The notes beneath the pieces were generated by a model. It was not told the DNA's origin. It was given only the letters and a program-made list of their open reading frames with translations, and searched no databases. The position numbers and the translations under genes are program-made. 64,000 bases of DNA from the NCBI GenBank assembly GCA_051047955.1, contig JBPGPT010000003.1:248001-312000 (forward strand). Reading direction: 5' to 3'. This DNA comes from Cystobasidiomycetes sp. EMM_F5 (Eukaryota). Positions 17,201-19,031 of the stretch are shown one piece after another (position 1 is the first letter of the stretch; every line of letters starts with the position of its first letter).

Positions 17201-19031
17201 AGACGTGATATAGCACCGTCCTGATATTAAATTCGTGCAAGGTATATTCTGACCGCGATTACCATACTTGAGCTTGGTTGTCTTGGCGCCGCTGGCTAAC
17301 CCAAGCAGCTGATGACCCAGACAGATACCAAAGATTGGCACCTTCGCTGAGGCCATGGCCTGGCGAATTCGTACGACGGTCGCAGCAACAGTGACAGGGT
17401 CACCGGGACCATTTGAGATGAACAAGCCATCGTAGGGTTCTTCGCTTGCAAATAGGAAGTCGTAATCCCATGGTACGACCTTTAATTCTATCCCACGTTG
17501 CACAAAGCAGCGGATTTGGTTGTACTTCATACCGACGTCGACAGCCAGCACTCGTAATGGTCGTCCTGACGGGTGGAAGAGCTCTTTGGTGGATCGCGGC
17601 GACATCGCTTGTCCGGTCGTACGAGGTGAATACGTTTTGGGAGCCGATAGGGATACCTTTGCAACCAGATTCTTCACATTTGGATCATCAAAAGGGATAT
17701 CGTCATAGTCACGTCGCCAGTCTGATGGTGACGGTGTTTGTTTGTCAGATGATAGGCCCGGTAAAGACTTGAAGACACTTTGCGCAACAGACGCAATTGT
17801 ACCTCCAGACTTGGCGGATCCTTGTCGAACGTGCGTATTTGACGTCTGCGCTAGCATTTTACATAGCAGCGACCCTTTTTCACGGATCATCTTGGTGATG
17901 GCTCGAGTATCAACGCCGTAGATGGCCGGGATGCCCTCCTCTGCCAACCATTGCCCAAGCTCGCTGTCTGCTAGAAAATGGGAGTAATCCTTGCCAGACC
18001 CGCTGTAGGAACCTACTACCAGCCCTGCGATATGTATTCTCGATGACTCGAAGAAAGCTGGTAGATTCGCGGATTGGAAACCTTGAGGATCCCGTTTCGG
18101 GACACCGTAGGAACCGACCAGAGGATAAGTCAGTACCAGGATCTGGCCTTCGTAGGAAGGATCCGTAAGGGATTCCGGATAGCCAACCATTCCTAGAGCA
18201 TCAACGCATGAGGCTCAGCATTGTGAACAGAAGTAATACAGATGCGCAGTGTTGAAAGGAGTGATGTGTGATTCAGGCCACTGCATAGCGTATTTAATTT
18301 GGACAGTGACGAGGTCGTAGTCTTCAAAATCGTACAACTCCTTGCGGAATCGCAGATTATAGACTGGTGCCAACAATAACATTCATCATAGAAGAAGGAG
18401 TTCTGTGAAGAAGAGGGGAAGGAATGTAGAAGTAGGGGGAGGAATCCTCACCTGTTTGAAAGACACACTCGCCAGAGATGCTCTTGCCTGTCGCGCCGAA
18501 GGAATAGCCCTGAAAAGCGATGCCGTCCGCAAATTCGAGAACCATCGTCTTGGGTGCAGTGTGTGTCAGGCTTGATGACCCTTCCTCTGCAAACGCAAAG
18601 GCATCTGTATCGTCCCCTGCTTCCGCTGGAAACGTGACAGGCTCTTGGAGGGCACCAACATGGTTATTGGCCAGCGATCGCTGCAGACTACGAGCCCTCG
18701 CTGGCGAATTTGCTGGAGAGGCAGACAAGGTGCGGGTGGAAGGGATGGAAAGCGAAGCCGAGTTTTCGTCACGTGCACCGGTCTCGCTATTGACATGGGT
18801 CTTCGCGTCTACAGCAGGCGTACTGCCATGGACACCGTTAGTGTAAGCACGCTGCTGACCTTCTAGATTCGCTGGAGGGACTTCATGCAAAGGCGTCGAC
18901 ACAACTGCCGCTAAAGAGCTTGGATTCGATGACGCTGCCAAATTTCCATGGACCAGCTTGTTTGCAGTATCCACGCTGCCTACCTGGAGGGACGGCGTGC
19001 CGTTGACGCGTGTGCTTGAGTGTTGAGCCAT
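11276..19031 (-). CDS. URA2: Multifunctional pyrimidine synthesis protein (GATase-CPSase-pseudoDHOase-ATCase), CAD/Ura2
   Basis: [32 protein letters not shown], two ATP-grasp CPS halves, [31 protein letters not shown]. Confidence 0.98.
18273..18389 (-). ncRNA. Intronic box C/D snoRNA in URA2 intron 1 (18193-18451), predicted guide for 18S G562-equivalent methylation
   Basis: C box ATGATGA (18389-18383); guide TGTTGGCACCAG (18375-18364) antisense to 18S CUGGUGCCAGCA; degenerate D' CTAT; GCAA-capped stem; C' TGAAGA (18326-18321); D box CTGA (18276-18273). Confidence 0.8.

What the first reader, a model, noticed from the sequence alone, without database searches (positions are those of the whole stretch)
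18273..18389. Box C/D snoRNA hidden in URA2 intron 1 with a bipartite 18S-pairing design
Seen: C box, then the 12-nt guide TGTTGGCACCAG, a degenerate D' (CTAT), a stem TGCGATTCC-GCAA-GGAGTTGTA closed by AATC/GATT, C' TGAAGA, and D box CTGA. Applying the D'+5 rule to the conserved 18S helix-18 sequence CUGGUGCCAGCA gives the second G, equivalent to S. cerevisiae Gm562 (guided there by snR40). Unusually, the region just upstream of box D is locked in a stem (GTCACTGT/GCAGTGGC). Its loop displays TTAAATACGCTAT (18297-18285), complementary with one bulge to 18S AUAGCGUAUAUUAA about 50 nt downstream of the target. Inference: an accessory anchoring/chaperone contact. Hosting in the first gene of pyrimidine synthesis would couple nucleotide supply to ribosome maturation. 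The rRNA sequences are from memory, not from this organism.
Basis: partly seen in the sequence, partly recalled or inferred. Interest (0 to 1): 0.75.

Follow-up and report, generated by a model that had tools for sequence, protein, structure and literature searches.

The report
snR80-type snoRNA in URA2 intron
An intron of this fungus's URA2 gene holds a small RNA of a known family that most likely marks one sugar near the ribosome's decoding site, and it carries a second, apparently undescribed grip on ribosomal RNA that relatives such as the fission-yeast version share.

Summary
Real, and a member of a known family. A box C/D snoRNA (18389-18273, minus strand) sits in a 259-nt URA2 intron. 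Its D' guide makes 13 bp with this genome's own 18S and selects the G562 equivalent. Closest relatives: S. pombe snR80, N. crassa CD43 and Afu-190; budding-yeast snR40 is more distant. The UACGC core lies before box D in 17 of 24 metagenomic homologues lacking GUACUC (0 of 24 chance hits). It sits in a hairpin loop closing at box D in 12 of 15 tested (about 10% of shuffles), and S. pombe snR80 shows the same design. 38 other homologues carry a different anchor, complementary to 18S upstream; only 1 has both. I found no description of either anchor in my searches. URA2 coupling is unsupported: hosts vary and no URA2 host was found among 114 loci. Weak points: no RNA data, Rfam score below cut-off, and an atypical D' (CUAU). 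The scan had not noted this on other DNA.

The parts
18193..18451 (-). Host intron (259 nt, GTGAGG...TAG), first intron within the coding sequence of the URA2/CAD-like gene
   Evidence: Removal restores the CPSase small-chain frame; domains
18273..18389 (-). Box C/D snoRNA, box C to box D (mature ends not known; no terminal stem evident in the flanks)
   Evidence: best Rfam match Afu_190, 20.2 bits, E 0.054, below cut-off 35
18383..18389 (-). Box C (ATGATGA), 62 nt from the 5' splice site
18364..18376 (-). D' guide: 13 bp (2 G-U) with own 18S; fifth base upstream of D' pairs with own G564 (yeast G562 equivalent)
   Evidence: -23.0 kcal/mol; same register as yeast snR40 C27
18359..18362 (-). 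Box D' (CTAT); atypical, since all 62 homologues end D' in A
18328..18358 (-). Hairpin between D' and C'
   Evidence: Pair probabilities 0.8-1.0
18332..18340 (-). Possible remnant of the alternative upstream anchor (contains TTGTAC; 9 bp including G-U pairs with own 18S near 516-526), buried in the hairpin
   Evidence: -9.9 kcal/mol; mean unpaired probability 0.11
18321..18327 (-). Box C' (TTGAAGA); predicted to pair with the D' region
   Evidence: same C' sequence in homologue L080
18303..18310 (-). 5' arm of the stem that closes directly at box D
18296..18301 (-). Loop extension CAAATT, 6 bp with own 18S 607-612
   Evidence: unpaired probability 0.97
18285..18293 (-). Accessory anchor ATACGCTAT (conserved core TACGC), 9 bp with own 18S 594-602, likely the 3' strand of helix 3
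   Evidence: also present in S. pombe, S. octosporus and S. cryophilus snR80
18277..18284 (-). 3' arm of the pre-D stem
18273..18276 (-). Box D (CTGA), 58 nt before the likely branch A and 80 nt before the 3' splice site
   Evidence: homologue medians 53 and 70 nt
18214..18220 (-). Likely branch site (TGCTGAG, A at 18215)
   Evidence: Sequence; not tested with RNA
18452..19031 (-). First coding exon of the host gene (first ATG of the open frame at 19031)
11854..18192 (-). Downstream exons of the host gene (GATase, CPSase, MGS, ATCase domains)

Best explanation
An intron-encoded box C/D methylation-guide snoRNA of the S. pombe snR80 / N. crassa CD43 / Afu-190 family (CD_43 in Canzler et al.). 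It is released from the spliced URA2 intron (inferred from spacing) and binds Snu13/Nop56/Nop58/Nop1 (family knowledge). The D' guide directs 2'-O-methylation of the G562 equivalent in helix 18 of 18S rRNA (pairing shown; the modification is shown in yeasts, not here). The D side guides nothing: it folds into a stem that closes at box D and displays UACGC in its loop. This loop pairs with 18S about 30-40 nt downstream, on the strand that later forms helix 3 with the 5' end of 18S. It most likely acts as an accessory guide that docks the particle on the nascent 5' domain, so that the main guide can compete with helix 18 folding (inferred). Many AHA1-hosted relatives use an upstream anchor (UUGUACUC against 18S 514-523) instead. 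URA2 is an incidental host.
For: Guide register and 13 bp with own 18S. Gm562 and its D'+5 dependence shown in S. cerevisiae (PMC4344503). Gm565 mapped and snR80 cloned in S. pombe (PMC4138321). CD43 and Afu-190 detected by northern. Among 62 distinct homologues: 37 GUACUC only, 17 UACGC only, 1 both, 7 neither; 0 of 24 chance hits have UACGC in range. UACGC lies in a loop whose stem ends at box D in 12 of 15 sequences against 4-15% of flank shuffles, with six pair types at the second position from D. Fission-yeast snR80, which my search pattern could not have matched, has the same loop and a double change in its stem between species. L125 has this design and scores 48.6 bits on Afu_190, over the cut-off. 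GCGUA and GAGUAC each occur once in own 18S, 33 nt after and 48 nt before the target. Accessory pairing raises methylation up to five-fold for other snoRNAs (PMC3116282).
Against: No RNA evidence for this locus. The Rfam score is 20.2 against a cut-off of 35, and in a genome-wide Afu_190 search this locus ranked second at E 0.48, behind a chance-looking hit. My own model matched only box C and the guide, the part used to select its training set. D' lacks the final A that 62 of 62 homologues have. The conserved core is only 5-6 nt: the 18S site ranked best for 7 of 18 loop segments, and up to 50 better sites existed for others; GCGUA also occurs 4 times in the ITS/25S pieces scanned. Homologues are related, so the counts are not independent, and their curation was by hand. 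The anchor (-12.9, core -10.8) is only about as stable as the helix it competes with (-10.0).
Confidence: 0.75

Rival explanations
1. The loop contact is mainly a folding chaperone: by mimicking the 5' strand of helix 3 it delays closure of the 18S 5' domain in the early pre-ribosome, and methylation is secondary.
For: The anchor target is the best intramolecular partner of 18S 21-32 (11 bp), and the anchor is at least as stable. The element is kept across hosts and distant lineages. Bms1 binds helices 3 and 18 in the 90S (PMC5354517).
Against: snR40 deletion has no growth, processing or polysome defect in S. cerevisiae. snR80 was not found in S. japonicus. Helix 3 is already formed in the 90S structure. 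37 homologues use a different site, which fits general docking better than a helix-3-specific role.
Confidence: 0.1
2. The RNA is degenerate or modifies a shifted position: the D' box CUAU is defective, or is read as a 5-nt or shifted box, giving G561 or U563 equivalents.
For: 62 of 62 homologues end D' in A and this one does not. Unusual D' boxes shift or double the target in U18, snR48 and snR13 (PMC5389607). No reads cover the intron to check the letter.
Against: Guide, C', pre-D stem, anchor and splice spacing are all intact. The D' C pairs with the last G of C' in the predicted fold. No second family copy was found in the genome and none lies upstream of its AHA1 gene.
Confidence: 0.08
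3. The loop element is a displaced U54-like D guide that still directs a second methylation near the G595 equivalent.
For: The element is antisense to the region that U54/SNORD54 is recalled to target (recalled; no call shows it). GAA1-hosted homologues extend it to 10-11 nt. No separate U54 was found in this genome.
Against: The distance from UACGC to box D varies from 8 to 21 nt, which is incompatible with a fixed D+5 register, and the bases next to D are paired in the stem.
Confidence: 0.04
4. Hosting in URA2 is selected and couples pyrimidine synthesis to rRNA methylation.
For: The location is real, and co-expression of intronic snoRNAs with hosts has been argued for RPL7 and NOG2 (PMC8476143).
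Against: No URA2 match among 114 loci (one spurious 28-aa hit at E 0.009). Hosts include AHA1, GAA1, a class II tRNA synthetase, a methyltransferase and a metallo-beta-lactamase-fold gene. 45 of 55 N. crassa C/D snoRNAs are intronic.
Confidence: 0.03

Closest known systems
S. pombe snR80 (18S Gm565; PMC4138321)
   Same: Intronic, single D' guide to the G562 equivalent, and AUACGC in the loop of a stem that closes at box D (read from the paper's supplementary sequences).
   Different: Host is snoRNA cluster VII, not URA2; 10-bp guide; D' ends in A. The passages and supplements I saw do not discuss the loop.
N. crassa CD43 (Gm559) and A. fumigatus Afu-190 (Gm557; Rfam RF01498)
   Same: Same guide and target by D'; best Rfam match of the window; expressed by northern.
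   Different: They carry UUGUACUC between D' and C', complementary to 18S upstream of the target. Similar metagenomic homologues sit in an intron just upstream of the AHA1 start codon.
S. cerevisiae snR40 (RF01201; Gm562, Gm1271, 25S Um898)
   Same: D' guide register GCACCAGU and the Gm562 target; grouped with CD43 as family CD_43.
   Different: The window guide makes only 6 contiguous bp at G1271 and has no D-adjacent 25S guide. snR40 carries GUACUC, not a loop anchor. No RF01201 match at this locus.
Extra base-pairing / accessory guides (snR70, snR75, snR76, U18, snR13; PMC3116282, PMC5389607)
   Same: A second conserved antisense element, not adjacent to a D box, in the D'-C' loop or the unused second-guide region.
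   Different: Those were described as immediately flanking the target. Here the site is 30-48 nt away on another helix, is shown in a stem-loop abutting box D, and alternates with an upstream anchor across the family.
snR4/snR45 bipartite acetylation guides (PMC5464676)
   Same: Two rRNA-pairing segments in one box C/D RNA.
   Different: Here one segment is a canonical D'+5 guide whose target is a mapped 2'-O-methylation in yeasts; nothing I saw points to acetylation.

Membership tests
Box C/D methylation-guide snoRNA | Terminal box C (RUGAUGA) and box D (CUGA) | tested here: met
   18389-18383 and 18276-18273
Box C/D methylation-guide snoRNA | Antisense element of 10 nt or more next to D or D', target at +5 | tested here: met
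   13 bp with own 18S, target G564
Box C/D methylation-guide snoRNA | Functional C'/D' motif | tested here: inconclusive
   C' TTGAAGA pairs with the D' region, but D' CTAT lacks the final A found in 62 of 62 homologues
Box C/D methylation-guide snoRNA | Stable RNA, Nop1 binding and methylation of the target | not testable with these tools
   No RNA run listed for the locus
Intron-encoded snoRNA | Lies wholly in a spliceosomal intron at typical spacing from splice signals | tested here: met
   62 nt from the 5' site, 58 to the branch, 80 to the 3' site; homologue medians 53 and 70 (loose pattern, no chance control)
snR80 / CD43 / Afu-190 (CD_43) family | D' guide G(C/U)UGGCACC-AGU aimed at the 18S G562 equivalent | tested here: met
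snR80 / CD43 / Afu-190 (CD_43) family | Rfam RF01498 gathering score of 35 bits | tested here: not met
   20.2 bits. Similar non-AHA1 homologues also fall short (L099 21.8, L110 20.8, L033 32.3), while L125 with the same design passes at 48.6. So it is filed as a family relative, not as an RF01498 member.
snR80 / CD43 / Afu-190 (CD_43) family | snR80-type pre-D hairpin with UACGC loop | tested here: met
S. cerevisiae-type snR40 (RF01201) | D' guide also fits 18S G1271 | tested here: not met
   6 contiguous bp only
S. cerevisiae-type snR40 (RF01201) | D guide for 25S U898 adjacent to box D | tested here: not met
   Bases before D are in a stem, and the U898 region was not among the top five sites of the pre-D segments
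U54/SNORD54 (RF00206) | Antisense element directly adjacent to box D | tested here: not met
   An 8-nt stem arm intervenes; spacing 8-21 nt in homologues; no RF00206 match in the genome
Accessory-guide (extra base-pairing) snoRNAs | Conserved second antisense element near the target, not next to a D box | tested here: met
Accessory-guide (extra base-pairing) snoRNAs | Mutation of the element lowers methylation | not testable with these tools
   Needs the S. pombe or native experiment

The most novel reading that the evidence does not exclude
An old eukaryotic snoRNA family needs one of two interchangeable long-range anchors to reach helix 18. The probably older one is a loop that mimics the 5' strand of helix 3 and so also times closure of the 18S 5' domain. 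It was swapped for an upstream anchor in most AHA1-hosted forms and in budding-yeast snR40, whose GUACUC would then serve G562 rather than G1271 as published. In budding yeasts the freed D-side element may have become the 25S Um898 guide by a single G-to-C change in the UAUACGC core.
Probability: 0.2. Interest if true: 0.65.

Novelty: new member of a known kind. Interest (0 to 1): 0.42.

Why it matters
The RNA itself extends a known family to another fungus and another host gene, which is ordinary. The added value is family-wide: a structured site beside the decoding centre seems to be reached with the help of an accessory anchor 30-50 nt away, and the family alternates between two such anchors. 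The same loop is in S. pombe snR80 and the other anchor is in S. cerevisiae snR40. So how a snoRNP gets into helix 18 can be tested with point mutants in two standard yeasts, and the published target of snR40's extra element can be re-examined.

Tried and rejected
Rfam at gathering threshold: 0 matches in the window. Viral contigs: 7 pattern hits, not examined further and taken as chance. Sequencing runs: no RNA holder listed. Three DNA runs of one study were laid; none covered the snoRNA, and loose ends at the splice sites hint at introns at the same position in other organisms but show only 30 letters. A sequence-only model from 42 homologues hit the window at E 3.6e-5 but only over box C and the guide, so it is circular and is not counted as support. 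Searches of the own genome for a second copy, a G1271 guide or U54 gave only hits lacking the box layout; these are lower bounds. A vestigial 25S U898 guide in CCAAATT was considered and not supported. CLASH supplements of PMC6171561 list snR40 at 18S-1271 and 25S-898 but, in the rows shown, no hybrid coordinates for anchors. No covariation count on a common alignment was made, because MAFFT did not align the 3' halves; a per-sequence fold with shuffles was used instead. Earlier scan notes: nothing by place or sequence, one note on a different helix-34 guide.

Full report
Observation. The feature is on the minus strand, in a 259-nt GT-AG intron (18451-18193). Removing it joins ...GECVFQTG to MVGYPES..., in a gene with GATase, CPSase, MGS and ATCase domains, so the URA2/CAD label is right. 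It is the first intron of the coding sequence; a 5' UTR intron cannot be excluded without RNA. The whole fold is not unusually stable (z -1.7, 10 of 200 shuffles as good). Box C lies 62 nt from the donor; box D lies 58 nt from the likely branch A and 80 nt from the acceptor.

Target, on the organism's own rRNA. I retrieved this genome's 18S and two pieces of its 25S. The guide makes 13 consecutive pairs, two of them G-U, at -23 kcal/mol. The next best site in those rRNAs is -17.4. The fifth base upstream of CTAT pairs with own G564, the second G of CUGGUGCC. This is the register shown by mutation for yeast snR40 C27 and G562 (PMC4344503, parts 3-4 of 5 read; alignment in the supplement of PMC3116282). 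At the G1271 equivalent only 6 contiguous pairs form. A box C followed by some 12-nt rRNA antisense and a CTGA is not rare by itself (0.39 per shuffled window), so the case rests on family evidence.

Family. Rfam gave nothing at its cut-offs. The best sub-threshold match is Afu_190 over the whole model (20.2 bits, cut-off 35, E 0.054). Afu-190 is a cloned RNA, 110 nt by northern, predicted to guide 18S Gm557 (PMC2377427, table passage). N. crassa CD43 is intronic, detected by northern and RT, predicted for Gm559, and listed as the homologue of S. pombe snR80 (PMC2780460, passages and supplement rows). S. pombe snR80 was cloned and Gm565 is among the sites mapped by primer extension (PMC4138321, section 6 and supplement rows). 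Canzler et al. group these with snR40 as CD_43, 90 sequences, 71 predicted for 18S-562 (PMC5824354, passages; its supplement could not be read). The RNA is therefore a new member of a known family.

Homologues. These collapse to 86 distinct sequences. I sorted them by hand into 62 homologues and 24 chance hits. 58 of the 62 have CTGA at the expected distance. Four (L019, L023, L031, L065) were kept for their intron-like context, and three of these carry TACGC. Of the 62, 37 have GTACTC only, 17 TACGC only, 1 both (L106) and 7 neither. Among the 24 without GTACTC, 17 have TACGC (14 of 20 without the four D-less loci), against 0 of 24 chance hits; one chance hit, L069, has TACGC just outside the range counted. 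The nominal P values (7e-9, 2e-7) overstate the case because the sequences are related.

The second element. The real duplex is 9 bp with 594-602 plus 6 bp with 607-612, -12.9 kcal/mol, the best site for the loop in the rRNA scanned. The joint two-site layout arose in 1 of 300 shuffled windows, by criteria chosen after the fact. The 6-bp extension uses a U at a place where the yeast sequence printed in PMC3116282 has G (GUUGUUG); this hints at lineage-specific matching but is one case. In 12 of 15 TACGC sequences with a box D (window included) the motif is unpaired in a loop whose stem ends exactly at box D, against 4-15% of flank shuffles. L066, L110 and L033 fail. Counted inward from D, the stems of the 12 passing sequences use many pair types, six at the second position. 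The spacing to D varies from 8 to 21 nt, so this is not a D+5 guide. The strongest independent support is S. pombe snR80, whose guide would not match my pattern. Its published sequence has AAUACGC in a loop closed by a stem ending at CUGA, and S. octosporus and S. cryophilus keep the loop with a GGAC/GUCC to GAAC/GUUC change in the stem (read by eye). One supplement file drops a C in the S. pombe loop, but the table and the probe sequence keep it. Against: the invariant core is short, and the site near 597 ranked first in 18S for only 7 of 18 loop segments (all against this genome's 18S).

What it pairs with. GCGUA occurs once in the own 18S, at 597, 33 nt after the target. The best partner of that stretch within 18S is 21-32 (11 bp, -10.0); I take this to be helix 3 (numbering recalled; PMC5354517 assigns nt 19-25 to helix 3, passages). 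The alternative element, TTGTACTC(AT), is complementary over 8-11 nt to own 18S around 516-523, and GAGUAC also occurs once, 48 nt before the target. L027 and L087 are in the AHA1 cluster, and L125 probably is, yet they have TACGC and lack GTACTC, so the switch is seen within one host lineage. L125 passes the Afu_190 cut-off. The window RNA keeps TTGTAC before C', but buried in the hairpin. Others use still different elements: AACAACAAC in L075 and L113, and a 530-loop complement in L042 (by eye). Van Nues et al. assigned snR40's GUACUC to 18S 1262-1267 before Gm562 was known. The upstream site near 514-519 is a simpler reading if yeast has the same hexamer, which I did not test.

Mechanism. 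Shown: boxes, intron position, both complementarities, conservation of loop and stem. From the family: RNP assembly and Gm562/565 in yeasts. Inferred: that the loop docks the RNP on the nascent 5' domain before helices 18 and 3 close, raising methylation as extra base-pairing does for snR75, snR76 and snR70 (PMC3116282, passages; PMC5389607, passages). The anchor is only about as stable as helix 3, and helix 3 is formed in the 90S structure, so early docking is more likely than displacement. A chaperone-first role is weakened by the lack of a phenotype for snR40 deletion and the absence of snR80 in S. japonicus. One oddity remains: D' is CTAT, whereas 62 of 62 homologues end in A. It may be a weak or shifted box, or an assembly error; no reads cover it.

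Host gene. 48 of 114 loci fall in one flanking-protein cluster identified as AHA1; 36 of the 43 distinct sequences I grouped as AHA1-type are in it. Others lie in GAA1, a class II tRNA synthetase, a methyltransferase and a metallo-beta-lactamase-fold gene. L104 is tandemly repeated. None matched URA2, though 34 loci had short flanks. This genome's AHA1 has no such RNA upstream. The pyrimidine-coupling idea has no support; whether close relatives share the URA2 location could not be tested. Lineage labels for the loci (filamentous ascomycetes, basidiomycete yeasts, algae) are my impression from sequence features and come from no call.

In print? Searches for snR40 or snR80 with extra base-pairing, helix 18, helix 3 or accessory guide and a word search of the snR80 paper found no description of either anchor for this family. 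The library lacks most subscription papers. The Canzler supplement and two supplement files of PMC4138321 were unreadable and may bear on this. Also seen as passages only: PMC6171561 (plus supplement rows), PMC5464676, PMC8476143, PMC8351944, PMC8522698; PMC3766210 as a listing only.

Verdict. A real snoRNA of a known family with a known target, in an incidental host. The accessory loop is probably real and shared far beyond this genome; it is a known kind of mechanism that appears unreported for this family and is directly testable in S. pombe. Interest 0.42.

Noticed in passing
window 52714 downward (minus strand): GTGATGA followed by a 12-14 nt stretch antisense to own 25S (near GUUCCUGCCGAAG) and a later CTGA; no clear intron context, and such layouts arise 0.39 times per shuffled window, so probably chance.
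   Followed up: partly
PMC3116282 supplement p. 9 compared with L033, L065, L115: The yeast snR40 D guide for 25S U898 (UAUACCCAAAUU) differs by one central base from the UAUACGCAA-type anchor of other family members, at the same place before box D; the guide may have arisen from the anchor or the reverse.
   Followed up: no
L075:1946-2033 and L113:253-333 (minus): Family members with AACAACAAC between D' and C' and an 11-nt element next to box D that is antisense to 18S 586-596, i.e. a possible second methylation guide.
   Followed up: partly
L042:1305-1396: The pre-D hairpin carries a complement of the 530-loop region of 18S instead of UACGC: a possible third anchor.
   Followed up: no
L104:207-730: At least three tandem copies of the family at about 210-nt spacing, each weakly matching Rfam snR40.
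   Followed up: partly
L080 and 47 other loci: In the AHA1 cluster the snoRNA lies just upstream of the AHA1 start codon, in what looks like a 5' UTR intron; Afu-190 was published as intergenic.
   Followed up: partly
window 18452-19031 (minus): The host protein has an N-terminal extension of about 160 residues, rich in S/A/P, with no Pfam match, before the CPSase small chain begins.
   Followed up: no
window about 19324-19386 (minus): GTGAGC followed by a long pyrimidine tract and TAG upstream of the URA2 start: a possible 5' UTR intron.
   Followed up: no
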